From NCBI GenBank assembly GCA_951406725.2, contig OX597825.1, positions 38,192,001-38,256,000 of the forward strand: a stretch of DNA of 64,000 bases, given 5' to 3'. The stretch is from Octopus vulgaris (taxonomy: Eukaryota). The notes beneath the pieces were generated by a model. That model saw only the letters and a list, made by a program, of their open reading frames with translations, did no database searches and was not told the origin of the DNA. Made by a program: the position numbers and the translations under genes. Below, in pieces: positions 5,559 through 62,350 of the stretch. The first letter of the stretch is position 1; every line of letters starts with the position of its first letter.

Positions 5559-5904
5559 TGTATTATAGCCTGACGCCTTTCAAACTCTTGTGAGAGGATT
5601 TCCTACACGAAAACTGAAAGAACAATATCGTATGTATGTGTATATGTGTGTGTGTGTGTGTCTGTGTTTGTACCCCTATCATTGCTTGACAACCGATGTT
5701 GCTGGCTTTACGTTCCCATAACTTAGCGTTTCAGCAAAGGCAGTGATTGAATAAATACTAGGCTTACAAAGAATAAATTCTCTGGTCGATTTTTGTGACC
5801 AAATGTGGTACTCCAGCATGGCCGATGTCACATGACTGAAACAAGTAAAGCAATAAAAAATCTATGACATTTTAATCCTGAGCAAGACCGGGTATCTCTG
5901 CTAC
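5071..5904 (+). mobile_element. Non-autonomous Helitron-like element carrying nested microsatellites and a SINE
   Basis: 5' TATATAATAGATAAAAGTGGGAATGTCTGTCTGT...AACTACGAAACGGATTTCATAGAAATTT typical of animal non-autonomous Helitrons; 3' degenerate hairpin CCTGAGCAAGACCGGG followed by TATCTCTGCTAC (CTAG-like end). Confidence 0.6.
5561..5858 (+). mobile_element. SINE family 1, 5'-truncated diverged copy
   Basis: Matches the body and tail of 18825-19225 (ATTGCTTGACAACCGATG...CTCCAGCATGGCC...TGACTGAAACAAGTAAA). Confidence 0.85.
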
Positions 5905-9814: not shown

Positions 9815-9955
9815 AAAAATACCTGAAGAATGAGAACCCAGGTTCGAAATTTCCCCAAGACTCCTGATGAAGGCTGGAGGGTATATCAAACGAAACGTTG
9901 TGTTAACAAACACGATGAGGACACATATCCGTCAAATGCAAATAATGTAAATGAT
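9815..9955 (+). mobile_element. Short hammerhead-bearing PLE-derived element, family A
   Basis: ~140 bp homologous to 37430-37570 (minus); preceded by (AAT)n. Confidence 0.75.
9859..9904 (+). ncRNA. Minimal type I hammerhead, family A (stems I and II mutated)
   Basis: GACTC-CTGATGA-A-GGCTGGAGGGTATATCAAAC-GAAACGTT-GTGTT; homologous to 37477-37522. Confidence 0.72.
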
Positions 9956-18824: not shown

Positions 18825-18826
<2 letters not shown>

Positions 18827-19224
18827 CACAGGAGTGGCCGTGTGGTAAGTAGCTTGCTAACCAACCACATGGTTCCGGGTTCAGTCCCACTGCGTGGCAC
18901 CTTGGGCAAGTGTCTTCTACTATAGCCTCGGGCCGACCAAAGCCTTGTGAGTGGATTTCATAGACGGAAACTGAAAAAAGCCCGTCGTATATATGTATAT
19001 ATATATGCGTGTGTGTTTGTGTGTCTGTGTTTGTCCCTCTAGCATTGCTTGACAACCGATGCTGGTGTATTTATATCCCGTTACTTAGCGTTTCGACAAA
19101 AGAGACCGATAGAATAAGTACTGGGCTTACAAAAGAATAAGTCCCAGGGTCGAGTTGCTCGATGAAAGGCGGTGCTCCAGTATGGCCGCAGTCAAATGAC
19201 TGAAACAAGTAAAAGAGTAAAAGA

Positions 19225-19225
<1 letters not shown>
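18825..19225 (+). mobile_element. Full-length tRNA-derived CORE-type SINE (octopus OR-like; family 1)
   Basis: A-box TGGCCGTGTGG, B-box GGTTCAGTCCC, CORE-like GCACCTTGGGCAAGTGTCTT, internal (TA)/(TG) tract, tail (GTAAAAGA)2; inserted in (TA)n; homologous to 5561-5858 and 36461-36841. Confidence 0.88.
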
Positions 19226-20084: not shown

Positions 20085-20200
20085 TATATCTATCTAACTA
20101 TCTGTCTATCTATCTATCTACCCATCTATCTATCTACCTACCTAATACCTACCTACCGACCTACCTACCTACCTACCTACCTACCTACCTACCTACCTAC

Positions 20201-20281
<81 letters not shown>
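20085..20281. repeat. (TACC)n/(TATC)n tetranucleotide array, 5' flank of the LINE
   Basis: Direct reading. Confidence 0.95.
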
Positions 20282-20282
<1 letters not shown>

Positions 20283-22369
20283 CGATACGGTGGACCATCG
20301 ATACTTGGAGGCGGTCCTCAGAGCGGCTGGCTTCGGTCCCGTCTTCCGCGGCTGGATAGCCGCTTTGTACAGAGGCATCCGTTCGGTAATTCGCGTGAAT
20401 GGACATCTATCGGGACCCTTCGACATCGCACGTTCGGTCCGTCAGGGGTGCCCCCTCTCGTCGCCTCTATACGTATTGACTCTCGAGCCATTATTGCGGA
20501 AGCTGGCAACTTTGAGGGGCATCCCGCGAGAACTGGGATGCGGGACGAGCGTGTCTGCATACGCGGACGACGTCACCGTCATAGTGTCTAGCCACGAGCA
20601 CATCGAGCAGGTCGGCGAGACGCTGAAAAACTACGAAGCGGTGACAGGAGCGAAAATCAACCGGGAAAAGTCAGTGGGCTTGCGACTAGGCACCTGGAGA
20701 AGCAAGCCCATGCCGTCCACCAGCGCCCCCCGTCGTGGGACGCTGGATCCGACGGCCCGGTTGAGTTGCTCGGTGTCTGGTTTGGTCCGGACCTCCAAGT
20801 GGAGAAGAACTGGATCGAGATAACGAGTAGGGTGGTCACTCTCGCCCGGTAATGGGCCGAGAGGAAACTGTCCCTAAAAGGTGGGGCGGAGGTGGCGAAC
20901 ACGTATATCGCGTCCGTCATCTACTACCGCCTGACCGTCGTACCTTGTCCCGACCCTACCATCACCAAACTACAACGCATTCTCTTTCGCTTCTTGTGGA
21001 AAGGATGTGTCCCGATGGTCAGGCGATCCATTTGCTGTCAACATCCGTTAAAAGGAGGACTGGGCATGCCGTGGTTGATGATGCGCAGACACGCGCTGAG
21101 ACTGCGACATCTCAGGCTCTTCGTAGACGACGGTGAACAGGTGTGGTCGCCGTTTGTGAGGCACGCTTTCCCGCAGCTCGTCTCCATGACCGAACTGCAG
21201 TCATGGATCAAAAAGAGGCCGAGGAAGGGCGAATGGCACCGCGTGTGTCGCGTTGCTCTCAAGCAACTCTGCCGTCCTGGGTCGACCTTGAGTGACTTCA
21301 TCACAACCAAAGCATTCTATAGGGGATTAGTGGAGGGGAGGTACGACGACGAGCTCGGGGCGAACCTGGACGTCGACGAGGAGTACCTGACCTGCCTATT
21401 CCGGACGACTTTCGGGCCAGGGCCCATGGACAACTTCCAGAGATCCCTGGCCTGGCAGTGCTACCGTTCGGGATAAGCTCTACAGACACGGCTCGAGAAA
21501 CACGGGGCCGACCTGCCCGAGATGCGGTCAGAGCGATGAAACCGTTCTGCACGCACTCGTGCAGTGTCCAACAATTTCCGACCTGTGGGCTTATGTCGAA
21601 CAACTGCTGTCACGTGTGGGATTAGTCGGTTTATCAGCTGAGTCTATCGTCAATATTGTCACGCCTCCTTCCTTCAAACGGGAAGGAAGAGCTATTTTCA
21701 TCATCCTTGTGGCTATGGCGAAAGAATGTATCTGGTGGACGCGTCTGAAAGGATTGGAGACAAACACTTTCCTCTCTGGGCAATCTCTCATCAACTTCTT
21801 CAAGTACCACTTGAAAAGGAAAGTGAGAGTAGAGAGGCAAGTTTTGTCTAGCGAATGTTTTAAAAAAAGATGGGTGAATGTAGCAAGGATGGCACGTATG
21901 AATGACGAAGCCACCTTGAGCATAATCCTATGAACCTAGAAATTGAAAACAGAGGGTTACCCACTCGCAAACAAATGTGGTAACATATAACAATATTGAC
22001 CAAGGTTACCGTGGTCTTTTTCGTAGGCTTTTCTTCCCACGGATAAACCTTACTTGCTTTCCCCTTTACACCATATATCATAACACTGTGATACACGATC
22101 CTTATTGATCCTTTTTTTCCTCTTCCCTTTTTAATCCCCTTTTTCTTCTTTTTTCATTTCTCTTTTCTTTTGTTCCTTTTCCTTTTCTTTTTTTTATGTT
22201 TATTTTTGTTTTTTTTTTCTTCCCTTTTACGATCCCTCTTGATCGAAAACCTACGCCACCCCCTTTTTTTGTTTCTTTTGTTTTTTGTTTTTTTCATCCC
22301 GCCAAAGAAAAGCTCTACCATTGTAACTTGTCCCATCTGTGTGCAGCCCTGTGTGGCCAATAAAGAAAC

Positions 22370-22370: not shown

Positions 22371-22440
<70 letters not shown>

Positions 22441-22450
22441 CCTATTTATC

Positions 22451-22500
<50 letters not shown>

Positions 22501-22528
22501 TCAACCAACCTATCTACCTACCTATCTA

Positions 22529-22561
<33 letters not shown>

Positions 22562-22690
22562 CAACGTATCTATCTACCTACCTACCTACCAAATTACCTA
22601 TCTATCTATCTATCTATCTATCTAACTATCTATCTATCTATTTATCTATCCATCTATCTATCTATCTATCTACCTACCTATCTATCTATC
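22371..22690. repeat. (TATC)n/(TA)n array, 3' flank of the LINE
   Basis: Direct reading. Confidence 0.95.
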
Positions 22691-28897: not shown

Positions 28898-28999
<102 letters not shown>

Positions 29000-29023
29000 A
29001 TCAACACGGATATCCAGAGGTAA

Positions 29024-29110
29024 TGCAGTACGATCGTTTCATGCGACTCCATTTAATTGAACAATGAAAATATTACATCAATTTAAAATGTAGAGCATTC
29101 TTCAGCTGCA
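29024..29110 (-). ncRNA. Type I hammerhead, family C (long stem II, intact core)
   Basis: Minus strand UGCAG-CUGAAGA-AUGC...~50 nt...GCAU-GAAA-CGAUCG-UA-CUGCA; stem I UGCAG/CUGCA, palindromic ACGAUCGU stem III, GUA cleavage triplet. Confidence 0.85.
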
Positions 29111-29541
29111 TAAAAATATAGAATTTAGTTAAATTCGAAGGATTCATTTGTATAGTTTTGTTATTATCCAAAATCACAAAGAGGATAAGTAGATGTATAC
29201 TCTTACTGAACCAAATGGTTTTACTTGAAAGAAATCTTGATTTATGACCCTGCCACTTAAACTGTCTTTTTACCCAATCCATAACGGATAGATTCTAGTT
29301 TCTATTAGACTTGATAAACTAGTCTATAAGTTAAAACTCACCCCACCCCCACCACTAGTAAATCTGAATAACAAATATAATCAATGCTAAGCAGTGTCTT
29401 CCTTTGAAAAAATCCCAGTTACCACTGTGTTGTTGTTGTTAAATATGTTCTTTGTCTGTATACTCATCCTCTTTGTGATTTTGGATAATAAGAAAACTAT
29501 ACAAATGAATCCTTCTAATTTAACTAAATTCTAAATTTTTA

Positions 29542-29628
29542 TGTAGCTGAAGATTGCTCTACATTTTAAATTGATATAATATTTGCATTGTTCAATTAAA
29601 TGGAGCCGCATGAAACGATCGTACTGCA
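29542..29628 (+). ncRNA. Type I hammerhead, family C
   Basis: TGTAG-CTGAAGA-TTGC...GCAT-GAAACGATCGTA-CTGCA. Confidence 0.8.
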
Positions 29629-29769
29629 TTACCTGGATATACTTGTTGCTTATTTTTATTATGACCACCCCCAATTTGAATTATATCGATAATACCATAC
29701 TAAATTCTGGTGCCTTTAACTTAAGTACCATATTCATCAGAATCACTCTCTCTCTCTCTCTCTCTCTCT

Positions 29770-29836
<67 letters not shown>

Positions 29837-30493
29837 TATAACTGCGTAAGTAGGGAACAATGCCAGAAGTTGTAACGTAAACTACGACAGGAAAAGAAAA
29901 AAAACGAAATAAAACCCTTTGCAATTTTGCCTTATATTTCTATATTTCGGAGTTATATACTCATCTCCAGGACATTTCAAAAAGCGTGAAGGGGAGAAGT
30001 TGTTCAAATGTGCCGGGCAATAAAGTAGAGGACGGCAACGTGCATAAAATATACATATTCTTTATTACATTGTAATTTCTCGATTAGTTTCAATGTAGCG
30101 CGTTGTGTGTTATTGTATTCTATAGCGTCTCTGCCAGCGAGCTCTGCAGTTGTTAAACAACCATAAGTATAGTCATTCCTCACAAGTCTCTAAGACTTGT
30201 CCCCTTGTGAGCAGCAATAATTTTCAATTAATTATCAAATGCTCGTAGATTTTTGTAAAACCCAATCAAAGTGGAAACAGTTTTATTTCGTAGATTGAGA
30301 AAAGCTCGCGCGTGTCTGGTTATATAACAATTCCCTTAATCTCTATCGGCATTCGAAGACTGCCAGAAGCTAATTATGTTTTCTGCTATGTGTGTAACGA
30401 TAAAGCTTTGATCATCTTAATCCATGCCGATCAAATCCGTTAAGAATAGACTCTATCTTACAAAATGAAATTTTACATGAATCATTATAACCC

Positions 30494-31039
30494 CTTTCTA
30501 CTAATAGCACTTTGGGGTGCGGGATATTAGTCGAATACATCGACCACAGTTTTCCACTGCTACTTAATTCATCAATCCCGAAAGGATGAAAACCAAAGTC
30601 GACCGCGGTGGAATTTGAACTCAGAAAGTAGCGGCTGACGAAATATCTATTTCTCTAGAGGGGACGAACAAGGACAGACAAACAGAATAAGCCGATTATA
30701 TCGACCCCAATGCGTAACTGCTACTTATTTAATCGACCCCGAAAAGATGAAAGCCAAAGTCGACCTCGGCGGAATTTGAACTCAGAACGTAGCGACTGAC
30801 GAAATACCTATTTCTTTACTACCCACAAGGGGCTAAACACAGAGGAGACAAACTAGGACAGATAGACGGATTAAATCGATTATATCGACCCCACTGCGTA
30901 ACTGGTACTTAATTTATCGACCCCGAAAGGATGAAAGGCAAAGTCGACCTCGGCCTAATTTGACCTCAGAACGTAACGGTAGACAAAGCACCGCTAAGCA
31001 TTTCGCCCGGCGTGCTAACGTTTCTGGCAGAACACCGCC
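30494..31039 (-). mobile_element. tRNA-derived SINE family 2 (Nin/Deu-like central domain), trimeric copy
   Basis: Head GGCGGTGTTCTGCCAGAAACGTTAGCACGCCGGGCG; three repeats of GTTCTGAG(T/G)TCAAATT..GCCGAGGTCGACTTTG.CTTTCATCCTTTCGGGGTCGAT. Confidence 0.87.
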
Positions 31040-33947
31040 TTTACATGAAGCATCATAATAGGAATGAAAAAATCAAATACTACCCAGTAGTTACAAGCAT
31101 TTTCCCGTAAAGTAAATAATTCCTTTAGCAGTAACAGTGATAATTACACGTTCCATTTTAAAGTACAGTGTTAGCCACAGACATCTCCTAATTCGGTAGC
31201 TTCATAATCCCTTGATTAATTTGTGAGAAAACTTGACTATTCTGTTCGGTCATATTTTTTTCTTCTAATCTATTTTCACATTATGGCGTGTGCAATTTAT
31301 TCATCCTTATTACCATAATTCATATTTTGCTTTCTTGATTAACAATTCTTATTATTGTATATTAACTTCAGCTTCTTCCTTCGTCATACAATTTCTGACT
31401 TCTTTTCGTACACTAATTACATTCTTTTCCTGCTGAGTTACGGTTACTCGTCTACATTATTTCACTCACTTATTCCTAATCTTTTTTGCTTCACCATACT
31501 TTTTCCCGAAACGTTCCCTGTATCTACTTTGCCTCCCTCTATTCGATTCTCGCTCCCGTGATCTACAATATTGTCCTGTTTCTGTAATGAACCAAGAAAA
31601 CTTGATAACAACTGCGTTCGAACCATACCGTCACCCATACTATACAAGTTATTTACATTTCATTAATATGTAAATAATAGAATAAATAAATGGATATTCA
31701 CCTTAGCGGCATTAACTTGTTAAATCGTCAGGTGAAAATGTAAGAAGTGAAATGTAACAATAAATACTGTCACCTGCAGGCAAACACATACACGAATTCA
31801 CACGCTTATGACGTATGCACACACTAGTTGACGCACACGGTTAATTATCGTAATTTCGTAGGCATGTATTTGTATGACAATAGCGTTCATATGAGTGCGT
31901 GGGTTTATGCATGTGTGCCAGTGTCAATATCGTTCGTTTGGATCGCACTATTTCTGTCTGTATACTCTGTCTGTCAGAACACACAACGTGACTAAGTTTC
32001 AGAATACGTCCAAGGAGGAATGTATACGTCAGAACAATCAGGAAACCGGCGTTATGCTCTATACGCAGTAATGTGGACTAACCTGGTTATATACATATGA
32101 AACCGCGATAGCTTGTGTGCCAGGTAAACAAAGATTATATTGGCGAAATATTAAGTGAAAAAAATATATATCACGAAATTTCAGATAACATATTGTGTAT
32201 TCATTATATCAGAAAATTCAACAGGAAATTGAGAATAAATAGAAAGAGATATGCAAATATACATGTTTACTTGCATAATAATACAGACACAAACAAGCAC
32301 ATACATAGACACATGTATAGGAACATATACACGCACATGGAAATCACATACATACAAACACACTTAAATTTACAGGATATATACGAATATAAACCAGAAA
32401 AGACGCGTGGCATTAAAGCACGCACACAATTTCGGACGTATATGATTCAGTATATGCATTGAACATTTCTGCTCTTATTGTAGAAAACACTTGAAAAGAT
32501 AGCGTATTAATTGCATGCGGGAGGCCAAGACTTTTTTGTATCAGCCTAACCATCTTTGATCCTTAACGCTCGTACATACATATCAGCAAACAGTAATCAA
32601 TGGTTATTGATAGGCACAATAACTGAACCTTGGTTAAGATCACTGGGTTTCACTTAGCAACATATTCCATGCTTGTATTCCTTGTATTTTTCTCCGATCA
32701 ATGTGACGTGATGCATGCAAAAGTTCTGATCTTGCATCAAGCCATGTTTGAACAAAATAGGAGAAGTGAATATTAAAATAACTCTATTACTTTGATGATT
32801 TCGTTTTGTTGATATTTGTTTTTTCCCTCTTTATTTTCTTTCCTGAAACAACATCATATGTGTTTTATTAAATGAAGCGTATTAACTTTAATCCTCACCA
32901 TATATATATTTTTTCAATGAAAGAAAATTTTGTGCCTCTTCTTTCTTAGATTACACGCAACAGCAATCTATTGTGTGTGTTTCATAGCTAAAATAGCGGT
33001 ACTAAGAGATGTGTACGGAAGTAGGTTGGCAATGTTTCGAGACTAGCAAACCCGCTCTTTCCTTTCAAAAGACATAGATTGATAAGTTCAAAAGAAACCT
33101 TTTACACTATGAACTCGTTCACACGAGGCTCTATAAATTGACTTCTAAGTCTTTGATAGTGGTACGGATATTATAAATCTTTCTCCAGTGATGTGATCAC
33201 CTATTTATTGTAGTATGAAGGCAACTAAATCAATACCAACGCTGTATCCACGACTAGTCCGCAGTTCTTTATTACTCGACAAATTAGAAACGTAATTAGA
33301 GACGATTTGCCAGGAAATGTGTACTCAAATGTTATCAAAGGTCATCAAAGACAACTCCCATTAGTGTCAGGCCATAATGCTTTACCGAAAATTACATAAC
33401 ACCAACGTGATATCTTCTTTGTTATTGTTTTCGTAAGGGTAGAAATATTCAGAACCGAGTATAAAACATCAGAAATAGTAAATCGTGCACACACACACAC
33501 ACACGCACACACACATACACACACACACACACGCGCACGCACGCACGCACGCACACACACAAACACACACACACCGACAGACACACACACATATATATAT
33601 ATCTATCTATGTATATATATATGAACTTACTTGGAAATGGATGCGTAGTGTTTAATCAAATAATAATATAAATATGCATGTATGAAAGTACGTATTTTGT
33701 AAATGCGTAAGTTAATTATATCATTAGCATAATGTTGTTGGGAGGTTTGTATGATTTTTTTTTTACTTTCCTCACATACTTTCATTTACTTTCATATTTA
33801 AATAACCTTCGGTATTCGCTTTCACTTCGCAATTCATCTCTATTAATCTCTCGCGATCTCCCGCTGCACACACCTACTCACACATATATTAATGAAAGCA
33901 TCTCTACTGTATACTGTCTCTTCCTACTCATTTATCTAACAAAGTCC

Positions 33948-34765: not shown

Positions 34766-34944
34766 TGTTGTGTGTTTGCACGGACATGAGAAAACGATAC
34801 TCCTACTTGAAACCTATAGCATCTCAAGGCAGCTTAGTTTCTTGAAATCTTGGTTGCTGCGAATCTAGTCGCTTCTTATATTTAGAGATTATTTCATGTT
34901 TAAAGAAACAATTGTATTAATATTATTTGTTATTGCAGGTATCG

Positions 34945-35160
34945 TGGCGATCTGGCAGAATCCTTAGCACGCCGGACAGAATGTTTAGCGGTATTTTGTC
35001 CGTCTGTACGTCGTGACTTCAAATCCACAGAGGTCGATTTAGCCATTCCTCCTTTTGGGGCCGATAAATTAAGCGTCAGCGTAACACTGGGGTCGATGAA
35101 ATCGACTAGTCTCAACCTCCACAATTTCATACCTTGCGCCTTTATTAGAAAATATTATTA
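34945..35160 (+). mobile_element. SINE family 2, monomer
   Basis: GGCGATCTGGCAGAATCCTTAGCACGCCGG...CACTGGGGTCGATGAAATCGACT...CCTTGCGCCTTTATTAGAAAATATTATT. Confidence 0.82.
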
Positions 35161-36460
35161 GTTATGCTATAACAATTTCTCTCTTTGCCTTATCAGTCAT
35201 GATATCGCAAGGCTGTATTTGATGCTTGTACACTTCATGTCAAAGCATCATTCTTAAAATCAGCGTCTGTATCTTGCTTGGGTATGCTGTAGACCACATG
35301 CTAGAGTATATTTTTATAATCTGTCGGTCAATCACAAAGATGTAGTATATTTTATAAGCAAGGAAAACTTAACAGAACATATGTCCATACTTTATAATAA
35401 ATTGACTCTTATCACGCAAAGATATATACACATATGTTTATTCAATCCTGAAATCAGCTCGTTTCACACACATATTCGTAATCACTTACTATGTGACATA
35501 TACGCGTGTTTACATGTGAGAGCACACAAATGTATGAAGTGCAATAAGTGGCGATCCTGCTTCCCTACCAACTAATGCATATGGATCTGTGAAATGACGG
35601 TATGTTAGTTTCTGGATGTTCAATGACTTTTCTGCTTAAAGAAGTCCCTCATAAATTAGGCACATAACCAGCATCATCCAATAAGATTACTATGGATTGT
35701 GGCTCTACATAACTGGAAGATTAAAATTCATGGCGCAGATTTTTCTTAACGGGGGTTGCATGGCTTTGCGTTCGACTCCTTAAATATACTTCTATTCATA
35801 TGTCCAGGCCTGTTGTGTTATATTTTGACACCTGATTGACCTAAAACAATTTTGACGCTAGCAGGTTTGACGCCTCATGTAGAAACTTGAGCAAAATAAT
35901 AATATGGACGGATACAATAATTTGATAAGCAAATAGATAGATAGATTGATAGATAGGTAGATAGATAGATAGACAGATATCAAATGAAACATCACCACGT
36001 GTTCTATCAATGAGACACTATTTAATGATTTAAAGTGTTGTTTCTTGATATTATTTGGCTGAAGGTTGAGATATTATGGTAGTTTAGCAACAGATATTCG
36101 CATCATCAATTATTTTCAGTTAATCCAGATGAACTAATTCTATGTACAATATTGAAATATTATGATAAAAGAATTATAATTATGCTTGTATGGTCGGAGA
36201 AATTATTATTTAGAGAATTGAATTTAATGTTTCAGCAATTATTTCTGTGCAAAATTGATGATGTGGACTTAATGACTGCAATGGAAATAATATCTTGGAA
36301 ACAAATATTTAAATATTGATTCCTTATTCCTTAATGAATCTGTTCAGAGACACATGTGCGTTGAAAATGTTTTCCCTGTTACAAACGGAGCTAAAATATG
36401 AAACAGTTTTATATTTAAGAGATGAGAAATTATGTACATTATTTACATTATTTACAATAT

Positions 36461-36548
36461 TGCGTGGCAACTTGGGCAAGTGTCTTCTACTATAGCCTCG
36501 TGCCGGGCAAATCTTTGTAAGTATATATATATATATATATATATATAG

Positions 36549-36633
<85 letters not shown>

Positions 36634-36841
36634 TATGTGTTTGTGTTTGTTCCCCCAACATCGCTTGACAACTGATGCTGGTGTGTTTACGTCCCTGTAA
36701 CATAACAGTTCGGCAAAAGAGACCGATAGAATAAGTTCTAGGCTTACAAAGAATAAGTCCTTGGATCGATTTGCTCGCCTAAAGGTGGTGCTCCAGCATG
36801 GCTACAATCAAATGACCGAAACAAGTAAAAGAATAAAAGAA
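36461..36841 (+). mobile_element. SINE family 1, headless copy with expanded internal microsatellite
   Basis: TGCGTGGCAACTTGGGCAAGTGTCTTCTACTATAGCCTCG...GCTTGACAACTGATGCTGG...GAAACAAGTAAAAGAATAAAAGA. Confidence 0.87.
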
Positions 36842-37429: not shown

Positions 37430-37570
37430 TTTACATTAACATTTGACAGACAGTTGCCCTCACCTTGATTGTTGTTAACACAACGTTTCGGCTGATATAC
37501 CCTCCAGCCTTCATCAGGTGTCTTGCGGAAATTTTGAACCTGGATTCTCATTTCTAAGGTATTTTTCGAT
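37430..37570 (-). mobile_element. Short hammerhead-bearing PLE-derived element, family A
   Basis: Homologous to 9815-9955; preceded in its own orientation by (AAT)n(AAG)n. Confidence 0.75.
37477..37522 (-). ncRNA. Minimal type I hammerhead ribozyme, family A (intact core)
   Basis: Minus strand GACAC-CUGAUGA-A-GGCUG-gagggUAUAU-CAGCC-GAAA-C-GUU-GUGUU: stem I GACAC/GUGUU, stem II GGCUG/CAGCC, palindromic AACGUU stem III. Confidence 0.85.
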
Positions 37571-49357: not shown

Positions 49358-49528
49358 ATAAAAAATACGTATCACTCATATTTTAAATAGTATGAGTAAT
49401 CCAATTAATACAGCGAATATATAGTTAGTGGTTATTCTTGTTAATCCTTTTCTTGAGGTCTTTTTTTAATATTTTTTTGGCATGCAGCTCTGATTTTCAA
49501 CTGGAACGAAGGCAATATATTCCAGCCC

Positions 49529-50112
49529 TTAGCACGCCGGGCGAAATGCCTGGCGGTATTACGTCTGTCTTTATGTTCTGTGTTCAAATTCCGCCGAGGT
49601 CGACTTTGCCTTTCATCTTTCGGGGTCGATAGATTAAGTACCAGTTGCGCACTGGTATCGATCTAATCGGCTGACCCACTCACCAAAAATTTCGGGCCTT
49701 GTGCCTAGAGTAGAAAATAATATATTCCATCTGTTTAGCACGCCGAGCGAAATACCTAGCAGTATTTCGTCTGTCTCTATGTTCTGAGCTCAAATTCCGC
49801 CGAGGTCGTCTTTGCCATTCATCATTTCGGAGTCGATAAATTAAGTACAAGTAAGGCACTGGGGTCGATATAATCGACTTACTCCGTCTGTCTGTCCTTG
49901 TTTGTCTCCACTGTGTTTAGCCCCTTGTGGGTAGTAAAGAACTAGGTATTTCGACTGTCTTTATGTTCTGAGTTCAAATTCCGCCGCGATCGACTTAGCT
50001 TGTCATCCTTTCGGGGTCGATTAAACAATTACCAGTTACGTATTAGGTCAATGTAATCGACCTAATCCCTTTGGCTGCCCTCTATGTTTAGCCCATTCTG
50101 GGCAATAAAAAA
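49529..50112 (+). mobile_element. SINE family 2, three tandem body units
   Basis: Units at ~49529-49722, ~49735-49942, ~49945-50112, each with GTTCAAATTCCGCCG.GGTCGAC...TCATC.TTCGGGGTCGAT. Confidence 0.87.
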
Positions 50113-52117
50113 TCAATATATTTCAGCCGTGGCTTGAACGAAGTAAAAGCGTGTAATGGTATCTTCCAGATTATGCCTTTCATTTCGAAATACAAATATG
50201 TGTTTTGTATGAGATACAGCTAATTATTTTTCCGCAGGTCAGTCATACAGAATCGAACGTATTCACTGATTTGTAATTAGGATTGTTGTTATTATTATTA
50301 GGATTTAGCACATAGCCACACCTATGATCATAAGCGTTACATCACTGCATACGGTTTCATTGTAAGGTATTATTTCTTTATTTAAGATGGTGATATGCAA
50401 TTTGTAGGACACACAATTGTCAATTCTGCCATCTTGAATGACTACAGGCTCAAATTCACTCAGCGTTTTACATAGTAGTGAGAGGATTTATTCAGTTATA
50501 AGCTGAAAAACTGTTGAATTGCCTATACCTAATTATGTAGAAATATCTCACGAAATAAAATGTGAAGTGATTGCTGACGGCTATAATCTCTGGATAGTTA
50601 TTGGGTTGATGCTAAACATCCAAATTCTATACAAAACTAATTTACACATTAAACTACTGAGTTAAACAGCTTCATATACTTAAAATGTCTGTATATAGGT
50701 TTCTACAAGTAATTTGTATAAGATATAAGGGAAATAACATATCAAGGTACTTCTCGAAGATGTCAATACAGAGTGTTGACTAACAATCATATTATTATCT
50801 GCGACATTGTGCTCCAGTCTGCATATTGTAAAGTTTCAACTTAAAAACGAATTAATACTGCGTATATTGCGTAATCCACTCGACGACAAATAATCTGGAA
50901 CTTGAAACATCTTTATTTTGCGATTAAGATTTAATAGTTTATGTTCATTCCAGCAAAATTATTTTGACGCTCGTAACTTTCTCAAATATAATAGTGAATT
51001 CATATAATGTGAAATACCTAACAATCCAGATTTCAGAGAGTTTTACTCGATATTATCCTGTGTCCTATATTCAATTTCAGCTGAGTTGCAGACGAGGAAA
51101 TCTCCCAAAAAGTTTGAGACCTTCGCCCAATTTCAAATAATTTTGTTAGTCTTACTTCAGTCAAATTTCTAATTTCCTTTATCAACACACCGCCGCTCAC
51201 CGCACTGAGATTACGAACATGTTTCTAATATTGAAAGCGGGTATTTTTCTATGGTTTAAACAAGAGTTTTTGCGTTAGAAAGTAGATTGTCATAGTTAGG
51301 TTGATATACTTGGAACTAATTATCAATATCATAAGCTTTTAAACATTGATTAGTATAAATTAAATTTGTCAGCACTTTTTTAAAAATGTTAACTTTAACA
51401 GTAAACATTTGCCTCTGTTCATTTCAGGTATCACACATATTGAAACATCATGAGTATAAGACAAATTACAGCTTTATAGAGTTGCAATATAAGTATTAAA
51501 GATGATCGAAAAATAATGAAATAACGGATTATATAGATACACATCAGTATTTCATGAGTATGATTTACATAAGCATTGGGTAGACAAACGTACTTTTCAT
51601 TCAATATTTGCAAAATTCACTCATATGGAAGTGATAGTAATTCGTTATGATGCATGTTGGGTAATATAAGGAAATATTCATTTATCAAAATTTGGTCAAA
51701 TATCAGATGTGTTGTAGTGATTTAAAGAAGTATTTTGAGATCATAATGATTAAATCAAGAAATTATGTGGCACGTGTATTGACTGCTGAGTATACTTAAA
51801 TACTAATATCCTTTATGCCCCTGCTATACTTACACTGTATACAGTCTAAATCATCCATATGTACTTACTTGCACACACACACACACACACACACGCGCGC
51901 ACACACATATATAAAGATGTATTTATGCATAAACACACACACGCATACACACACATAAATTTATATATATGTATATATATGTGTGTGTATATATATAAGT
52001 GTGTCTGAGTATAAACACTACAGGAAAATAAAATTTCAAAGTTAGCAATGCAGAAGGGTTTATAAAAGCCATTATATTTCGGCCCATACTCAGAAGGATT
52101 TGTCCAAGAAATATCTA

Positions 52118-61928: not shown

Positions 61929-62014
<86 letters not shown>
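61929..62014. repeat. Self-complementary (CT)n(AT)n(AG)n compound microsatellite
   Basis: Direct reading. Confidence 0.93.
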
Positions 62015-62020
<6 letters not shown>

Positions 62021-62350
62021 GAATATGGTAAGTTGAGGCACCAGAATTAAGTACGGTATTATCCATACAATTTCAAAATATAGTGATTAAAATCAAAATA
62101 AGGAACAAGAAAATCAAGAGGTACTGCAGTACGATCGTTTCATGCGACTCTATTTAATTGAACAATGCAATCATTTCATTACAGCAATTTAAAATGTTGA
62201 GCTATCTTCAGCTGCACAAAGACATAGAATTTAATTAAATTAGGACACATTAGTATAATTATACCTAAAATTTCCAAGAGGATAAGGAGATAGACAAAGA
62301 ACATGTTTTACCAACAACATCATAGTTGTAACATAGTTGATTACTGGGAC
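62015..62350 (-). mobile_element. Family C hammerhead-bearing element
   Basis: Homologous to ~29410-29745 (GATAATACC.TACT.AATTCTGGTGCCT...CCATATTCATC); ends in (CT)n(AT)n. Confidence 0.78.
62125..62216 (-). ncRNA. Type I hammerhead, family C
   Basis: Minus strand TGCAG-CTGAAGA-TAGCTC...GAGTCGCAT-GAAACGATCGTA-CTGCA. Confidence 0.8.

What the first reader, a model, noticed from the sequence alone, without database searches (positions are those of the whole stretch)
30811..30851. SINE linker/tail matches the 3' end of the Tx1 LINE: candidate SINE-Tx1 partnership
Seen: LINE terminus 22328-22368 (TTGTCCCATCTGTGTGCAGCCCTGTGTGGCCAATAAAGAAA) aligns without gaps to the SINE family 2 linker 30811-30851 minus (TTGTCTCCTCTGTGTTTAGCCCCTTGTGGGTAGTAAAGAAA), 32/41 identical by hand. 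The same tail occurs at 49902-49942 and a variant at ~50071-50110. All keep a small GC hairpin just before the A(A/G)TAAA (GCC/GGC, GCCC/GGGT, GCCCA/TGGGC). Established: SINEs borrow the 3' stem-loop of stringent partner LINEs, and Tx1-tailed SINEs are uncommon. Inference: a SINE subfamily was mobilised by a Tx1-clade relative of this LINE.
Basis: partly seen in the sequence, partly recalled or inferred. Interest (0 to 1): 0.8.

Follow-up and report, generated by a model that had tools for sequence, protein, structure and literature searches.

The report
Octopus SINE carrying a Tx1-like tail
An abundant short jumping element in what is likely an octopus genome contains a 41-base piece matching the very end of a nearby L1/Tx1-type jumping gene, which likely marks a borrowed tail of a kind listed so far only for plants and algae, but three of its four copies here sit inside fused elements and it is untested whether the long element ever moved the short one.

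Summary
The match is real. The last 41 nt of a 5'-truncated L1/Tx1-type LINE (20283-22369, inside a (CTAT)n tract) match a segment of a tRNA-type SINE at 32 of 41; 0 of 1000 shuffles reach this, and of 2045 LINE 41-mers the terminal one scores best. Majority letters in two sequencing runs move a second copy from 30 to 33 of 41. Three of four SINE copies of the segment are internal linkers between fused SINE units. Against the partnership: the hairpin is no better than shuffles and shows no compensatory change; the SINE does not use the LINE's microsatellite target; three of four SINE insertions end in a different tail; only one LINE end was seen; Tx1 rather than L1 is inferred. Best reading: the SINE took a Tx1-relative's 3' end, likely travelled on it for a time, and the tail is now mostly a relic linker. 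New variant of a known kind.

The parts
20283..22369 (+). 5'-truncated L1/Tx1-type LINE: back half of ORF2 (RT from about residue 357 of relative P0002, then zf-RVT; two frameshifts and one stop), stop at 21933, then a 435-nt T-rich 3' UTR
   Evidence: relatives 62-73% identical incl. Argonauta hians
22328..22368 (+). terminal 41 nt of the LINE copy, with an AATAAA and a short A run; the segment shared with the SINE
20087..20282 (+). (CTAT)n-type microsatellite on the 5' side of the LINE (likely target)
22371..22690 (+). (CTAT)n-type microsatellite on the 3' side of the LINE (likely target)
30491..31039 (-). trimeric SINE insertion: full head unit + LINE-like segment, shortened-head unit + deleted segment, shortened-head unit + a different tail (tail A); flanked by a 19-nt duplication (31058-31040 and 30490-30472, 17 of 19)
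30811..30851 (-). LINE-like segment (tail B), internal linker, 32 of 41 to the LINE end
30650..30668 (-). second internal copy of tail B with a deletion of about 23 nt
49528..49717 (+). SINE monomer lacking the first part of the head, ending in tail A
49733..50113 (+). SINE dimer: unit + internal tail B, then shortened-head unit + terminal tail B variant
49902..49942 (+). tail B, internal linker, 30 of 41 to the LINE end (33 of 41 with the majority letters listed for runs X1 and X2)
50073..50113 (+). tail B variant at the 3' end of an insertion, 27 of 41 to the LINE end, keeps the LINE's AATAAA
49513..49527 (+). target-site copy 1 (15 nt)
49718..49732 (+). target-site copy 2, between the monomer and the dimer (11 consecutive matches to copy 1)
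50114..50128 (+). target-site copy 3, directly after the terminal tail B variant (14 of 15 to copy 1)
   Evidence: a single-copy flank contig of run X1 ends exactly at 50114
34934..35150 (+). SINE monomer of the same family ending in tail A, 15-nt duplication (34919-34933 and 35151-35165, 14 of 15); control without tail B

Best explanation
A tRNA-type SINE carries a 41-nt segment that matches the end of an L1/Tx1-type LINE copy and was likely taken from a relative of that LINE; SINEs ending in it were likely copied by that LINE's enzyme for a time, and the segment now survives mostly as a linker inside fused SINE units. Inferred steps: (1) a template switch or recombination joined the SINE head and body to the LINE 3' end, giving tail B beside the family's other tail A; (2) tail-B RNAs were reverse-transcribed from their AATAAA/A-rich end, leaving insertions such as 49733-50113 with a 15-nt duplication; (3) a tail-B unit became fused, at one fixed point, to the shortened head of a downstream unit, and such dimers and trimers spread on whichever tail was last (tail A for 30491-31039). 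Shown: the sequence match, its position at the LINE copy's end, the array anatomy, the duplications. Not shown: which LINE did the copying.
For: Match beyond chance and peaked at the LINE's last base: 0 of 1000 shuffles, best of 2045 LINE 41-mers, next-best outside the end region 27 of 41; top non-self blastn hit of the UTR. All 3 majority differences that one search lists inside 49902-49942 change the SINE letter to the LINE's letter (273 weaker rows were not shown), as expected if copies decay away from a LINE-like master. In all SINE copies the similarity stops where the LINE copy stops. One copy is terminal with a 14 of 15 duplication; 0 of 150 random segment pairs scored as high. In contigs of runs X1 and X2 summed depth drops 44% and 42% in the four bases after 49942 (17.6M to 9.9M; 17.3M to 10.0M), a branch point at the tail end. 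Tail swapping among SINEs is documented for MetaSINEs (PMC4824008, passages). The LINE is L1-clade by similarity to human L1 ORF2p (E 1e-50 versus 1e-24 for R2, for relative P0002).
Against: 3 of 4 window copies are internal and 3 of 4 SINE insertions end in tail A. The terminal copy shares its target with a tail-A monomer, and tail-A insertions have duplications of the same size (15 and 19 nt), so one other enzyme could have made all four. None of the SINE insertions lies in (CTAT)n, the LINE's apparent target. No folding or covariation signal. The terminal copy is the weakest match (27 of 41). Only one LINE end was available; scans of viral, metagenome and genome collections gave no further copy of the tail (0 hits). 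35-49% of contig depth at 49942 still runs on at 49954, and no loose-end pile at the tail end is among the rows shown (1788 rows not shown).
Confidence: 0.5

Rival explanations
1. Passive cargo: a short LINE 3' fragment entered the SINE once (template switch, or a Tx1-type insertion aimed at the SINE head) and all later spread, the terminal copy included, was driven by the tail-A partner. The segment is LINE-derived but never served as a recognition tail.
For: Internal position in 3 of 4 copies at one fixed junction; shared target of the tail-A monomer and the tail-B dimer, and similar duplication sizes; no structure signal; LINE parts are known to become SINE middles (PMC5786205, title, abstract start and passages).
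Against: The terminal copy stops at the same place as the LINE and keeps its AATAAA; the depth break at the tail end suggests many contigs leave the array there.
Confidence: 0.28
2. Reverse direction: the 41 nt are SINE-born, and this LINE copy or family picked them up from the far more abundant SINE.
For: Tail B is very abundant (summed depth 39.5M against 57 for single-copy flank in X1; not a copy number) and only one LINE end was seen.
Against: The segment follows a T-rich UTR without a break, holds the only AATAAA near the end and abuts the target tract, the same layout as the distant relative L001, which ends in an AATAAA and A run before a (TC)n tract; no SINE body lies upstream of it in the LINE.
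Confidence: 0.1
3. Chance or convergence of a TG-rich stretch followed by a polyadenylation-like signal.
Against: 0 of 1000 shuffles for the full 41-mer, peak exactly at the terminus, 21 of 41 against the window's other SINE family; majority letters move toward the LINE.
Confidence: 0.12

Closest known systems
SINE/LINE pairs with a common tail in the L1 clade: maize ZmSINE2 and ZmSINE3 with LINE1-1_ZM; Chlamydomonas SINEX-3_CR with L1-1_CR (PMC3472496 passages; PMC3747384 passages and Table 1)
   Same: tRNA-type SINE sharing about 45-80 nt with the 3' end of an L1-clade LINE
   Different: Those are plant and algal, with a stem-loop supported by compensatory changes; here the host is an animal, the match is 41 nt to one copy, the hairpin has no support and the segment is mostly internal.
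SINEU of crocodilians, mobilised by Tx1-Mar (PMC4494074 passages)
   Same: a short retroposon thought to use Tx1 machinery
   Different: SINEU has snRNA heads and the link rests on shared targets; no LINE matched the SINEU-1 3' half. Here the link is sequence and the targets differ.
Microsatellite-targeting Tx1 families: Kibi (TC)n, Koshi (TTC)n, crocodilian (TTCC)n and (TTTC)n families (PMC4494074 passages)
   Same: L1-clade ORF2 inserted in a simple repeat
   Different: (CTAT)n target in a mollusc, one copy only; no tree against named families was possible.
Octopus tRNA SINEs OK, OR1, OR2 (Ohshima and Okada 1994; only the citation seen; paper not held)
   Same: I recall this SINE as the OK type; the label is recalled and comes from no call
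   Different: Consensus could not be compared; whether the published or Repbase/Dfam entry notes the LINE-like segment is unknown.
Complex (dimeric, trimeric) SINEs and tail swapping in SINE superfamilies (PMC3531059 passages; PMC4824008 passages)
   Same: fused units and alternative tails on one head and body
   Different: SINEBase lists LINE-derived regions of Bov-B, CR1 and L2 only; Tx1 occurs 0 times in its main text.

Membership tests
SINE/LINE pair with a common tail (stringent type) | SINE segment similar to the LINE 3' terminus beyond chance | tested here: met
   32 of 41; 0 of 1000 shuffles; best of 2045 LINE 41-mers
SINE/LINE pair with a common tail (stringent type) | the segment forms the 3' end of independent SINE insertions | tested here: inconclusive
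   1 of 4 window copies terminal with a 15-nt duplication, 3 internal; contigs cannot separate ends from other junctions
SINE/LINE pair with a common tail (stringent type) | the segment is the conserved end of the LINE family | not testable with these tools
   no genome held; no second LINE end found
SINE/LINE pair with a common tail (stringent type) | conserved stem-loop with compensatory changes | tested here: inconclusive
   0 compensatory pairs in 4 sequences, folding z from -0.80 to 0.33; too few sequences to exclude
SINE/LINE pair with a common tail (stringent type) | shared insertion target or signature | tested here: not met
   LINE in (CTAT)n; the one terminal SINE copy in an AT-rich single-copy site shared with a tail-A copy; another L1/Tx1 family could have a different target
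SINE/LINE pair with a common tail (stringent type) | trans-mobilisation depending on the tail | not testable with these tools
   needs a cell assay
L1 clade (wide sense) | APE endonuclease + RT ORF2 closest to L1 ORF2p | tested here: met
   window RVT_1 and zf-RVT; full-length relatives Exo_endo_phos + RVT_1 + zf-RVT; P0002 hits human L1 ORF2p at E 1e-50, R2 at 1e-24
Tx1 clade | RT groups with named Tx1 families in a tree | not testable with these tools
   relatives carry no family names
Tx1 clade | target preference for a repeat | tested here: inconclusive
   same microsatellite on both sides of one copy; distant relative L001 ends at a (TC)n tract
tRNA-derived SINE | A and B box-like head, short length, dispersed copies with target-site duplications | tested here: met
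   B-box-like motif in 7 units, duplications at 3 loci, very high depth; ARAGORN calls no tRNA, so the parent tRNA is not named
MetaSINE | Meta domain after the head | tested here: not met
   three body motifs occur 0 times in the MetaSINE supplement; Meta sequences seen look unlike the body (by eye)

The most novel reading that the evidence does not exclude
One of the most abundant octopus SINEs was mobilised by a Tx1-clade LINE through a shared 3' tail, an animal case of sequence-specific template choice in the L1/Tx1 branch, and its fused arrays record a switch between two partner LINEs.
Probability: 0.4. Interest if true: 0.65.

Novelty: new variant of a known kind. Interest (0 to 1): 0.45.

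Why it matters
A survey found only 3 SINEs with L1-clade tails among 58 pairs, and its table lists none in animals and none for Tx1 (PMC3472496, PMC3747384). That survey argues that the ancestral L1 recognised its RNA end by sequence. An animal SINE with a Tx1 tail would give a test case for that idea and would name a partner for part of the SINE mass in octopus genomes (SINEs 11.6% of O. vulgaris, mostly unclassified among the young families; PMC13282606). If the segment is only cargo, it is an ordinary example of SINE module shuffling.

Tried and rejected
Whole-genome test: no genome held. Tail pattern scans: 0 hits in viral contigs, metagenome contigs, genome contigs. The window count for that pattern (4 matches) is circular, since the pattern was built from those copies, and is not used as evidence. 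ORF2 scans: 5 distant loci at 22-34% identity in metagenomes, none in genomes or viral contigs. Rfam gave only low-complexity matches below gathering scores. Naming the clade through named relatives failed. A search with a translated stretch of the SINE was not run because the frame held a stop. Raw reads were too thin and skewed to use: 8 and 234 reads laid, and X23 shows a letter at 49946 in 58 of 81 reads that is in about 1% of contig depth. Reading the bases after 50113 as a decayed start of another SINE unit was rejected: it needs gaps, whereas the duplication is ungapped, in register with both heads, and single-copy in depth. MetaSINE label rejected. No LINE matching tail A was found in the window. 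Earlier scan notes held nothing for this genome or these sequences.

Full report
Setting. No genome is held for this window. The LINE protein has a relative named from Argonauta hians at 63% identity, and the repeat content fits an octopod; the host is inferred, not shown.

The LINE. A fragment at 20283-22369 encodes the back half of an ORF2 in three frames, with RVT_1 and zf-RVT. Full-length relatives of about 1150 aa have Exo_endo_phos, RVT_1 and zf-RVT, and relative P0002 is closer to human L1 ORF2p (E about 1e-50) than to R2 (1e-24 and weaker). The copy is 5'-truncated and has the same four-base microsatellite on both sides (20087-20282, 22371-22690). Microsatellite targeting is described for Tx1 families (PMC4494074, passages), and a distant relative, L001, ends in an AATAAA and A run before a (TC)n tract. 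Tx1 is therefore likely, but no named reference was available for a tree.

The match. 32 of 41 at the stated coordinates, 30 of 41 at 49902-49942, 27 of 41 at 50073-50113. The unguided search of the 435-nt UTR returned the 30811-30851 segment as best non-self hit, E 0.002, ending on the last base. 0 of 1000 shuffles reached 32; without the A-rich end 1 of 1000 reached 23 of 31; among 2045 LINE 41-mers the terminal one matched the SINE arrays best, and the best starting before 22290 had 27; the window's other SINE family gave 21. One search lists three majority differences inside 49902-49942 in contigs of runs X1 and X2, and all three give the LINE's letter, raising 30 to 33 of 41; 273 weaker rows were not shown.

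The SINE. Three loci hold seven units. 34934-35150 is a monomer with tail A and a 15-nt duplication. 30491-31039 is a trimer with tail B twice inside (once with a deletion), tail A last, and a 19-nt duplication. 49528-50113 is a tail-A monomer followed by a dimer with tail B inside and a tail-B variant last; a 15-nt target occurs before, between and after them (49513, 49718, 50114). The duplications score 14 of 15, 17 of 19 and 14 of 15, each above 150 of 150 random segment pairs; the middle copy matches copy 1 over 11 bases (0 of 150) and copy 3 at 10 of 11 (2 of 150). I set the search zones after seeing the ends by eye. So tail B ends 1 of 4 insertions and is internal in 3 of its 4 copies, always joined to the same point of the next head.

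Other copies. Reads and contigs of 4 of the 24 listed runs were laid on 49400-50260. Summed contig depth over tail B is 39.5M in X1 against 57 on the single-copy flank, so the segment is part of a very abundant repeat; the variant at 50067-50095 has 1.56M. Depth falls from 17.6M at 49942 to 9.9M at 49946 and 6.2M at 49954 in X1 (17.3M, 10.0M, 8.4M in X2): there is a branch at the tail end, and a third to a half runs on into the next unit. Contigs cannot tell true ends from other junctions, and no loose-end pile at the tail end is among the rows shown. A 1779-nt flank contig of X1 ends exactly at 50114, the first base of the duplication, which would fit an allele without the insertion or a plain variant at 50113; in X2 the flank contig reaches 50080. 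The raw reads were few and skewed and are not used.

Hairpin. It can be drawn in all four intact sequences but has no compensatory change and no folding advantage over shuffles. It neither supports nor excludes stem-loop recognition.

Mechanism. The best reading (0.5) is capture of a Tx1-relative's 3' end as a second tail, a period of copying by that LINE, then fusion into dimers and trimers that travel on the last tail. The main rival (0.28) is that the piece is LINE-derived cargo and another LINE moved everything: the terminal copy shares a target with a tail-A monomer, duplication sizes are alike, and none sits in (CTAT)n. Reverse capture (0.10) and chance (0.12) remain.

Literature. Ohshima's survey found three SINEs with L1 tails among 58 pairs; its Table 1 has no Tx1 partner and no animal L1-clade partner (PMC3472496 passages; PMC3747384 passages and the first part of the tables section). 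SINEU is tied to Tx1-Mar by target, not tail (PMC4494074 passages). SINEBase names Bov-B, CR1 and L2 regions (PMC3531059 passages; supplement not readable). Octopus repeat papers list L1-Tx1 families and abundant SINEs, with no tail pairing in what I read (PMC13282606, two of three parts of the text and a term search of its supplement; PMC8967140 passages). Term look-ups for Tx1 found nothing relevant in PMC4758252, PMC5786205 and PMC7245038 (passages). PMC6007223 was seen as abstract only. Nine library searches showed no report of a SINE with a Tx1 tail. Ohshima and Okada 1994 and the 2015 octopus genome paper are not held, and Repbase, Dfam, SINEBase sequences and the Zenodo library could not be seen; any of these may already note the match.

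Verdict. Real homology, partly right interpretation, partnership unproven. New variant of a known kind; interest 0.45.

Noticed in passing
window 37485-37517 (-) and 9864-9896 (+), in the repeat pair 37430-37552 / 9829-9951: Two copies of a repeat beside (TCT)n/(TTA)n tracts hold a hammerhead-ribozyme-like core (CUGAUGA, stem, GAAA); I recall such ribozymes from Penelope-like elements. The 37485 copy folds better than 196 of 200 shuffles; Rfam did not report it.
   Followed up: partly
window 49513-50128: Three copies of one 15-nt target frame two SINE insertions that both lack the first part of the head at almost the same base; repeated use of one site or a local duplication, unexplained.
   Followed up: partly
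run X23 laid on 49879-49958: Loose ends show short head-to-tail repeats of tail B plus linker without the SINE body, possibly a satellite derived from the SINE.
   Followed up: no
L003:1970-2123: A distant L1-clade relative ends next to histone H3 coding sequence, possibly a histone-gene target.
   Followed up: partly
L001:5420-5678: Distant relative (34% identity) ends in an AATAAA and A run directly before a (TC)n tract, as described for Kibi.
   Followed up: partly
window 18826-19225, with pieces at 5564-5858 and 36461-36840: A second tRNA-type SINE family with a microsatellite-like middle; recalled as the OR1 type, label not tested.
   Followed up: no
window 28995-29744 and 62012-62332: Inverted-repeat element (28995-29191 against 29461-29655, 93%) with a second copy; MITE-like.
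   Followed up: no
window 31059-31088: The tail-A trimer's duplication starts with T a few bases downstream of a T run, resembling the RTE insertion signature in the abstract of PMC6007223; the other two loci do not show it clearly.
   Followed up: partly
P0005, P0010: A 64%-identical relative of the LINE protein is deposited under a bacterial name on a 1775-nt contig, likely animal DNA in a metagenome bin.
   Followed up: no
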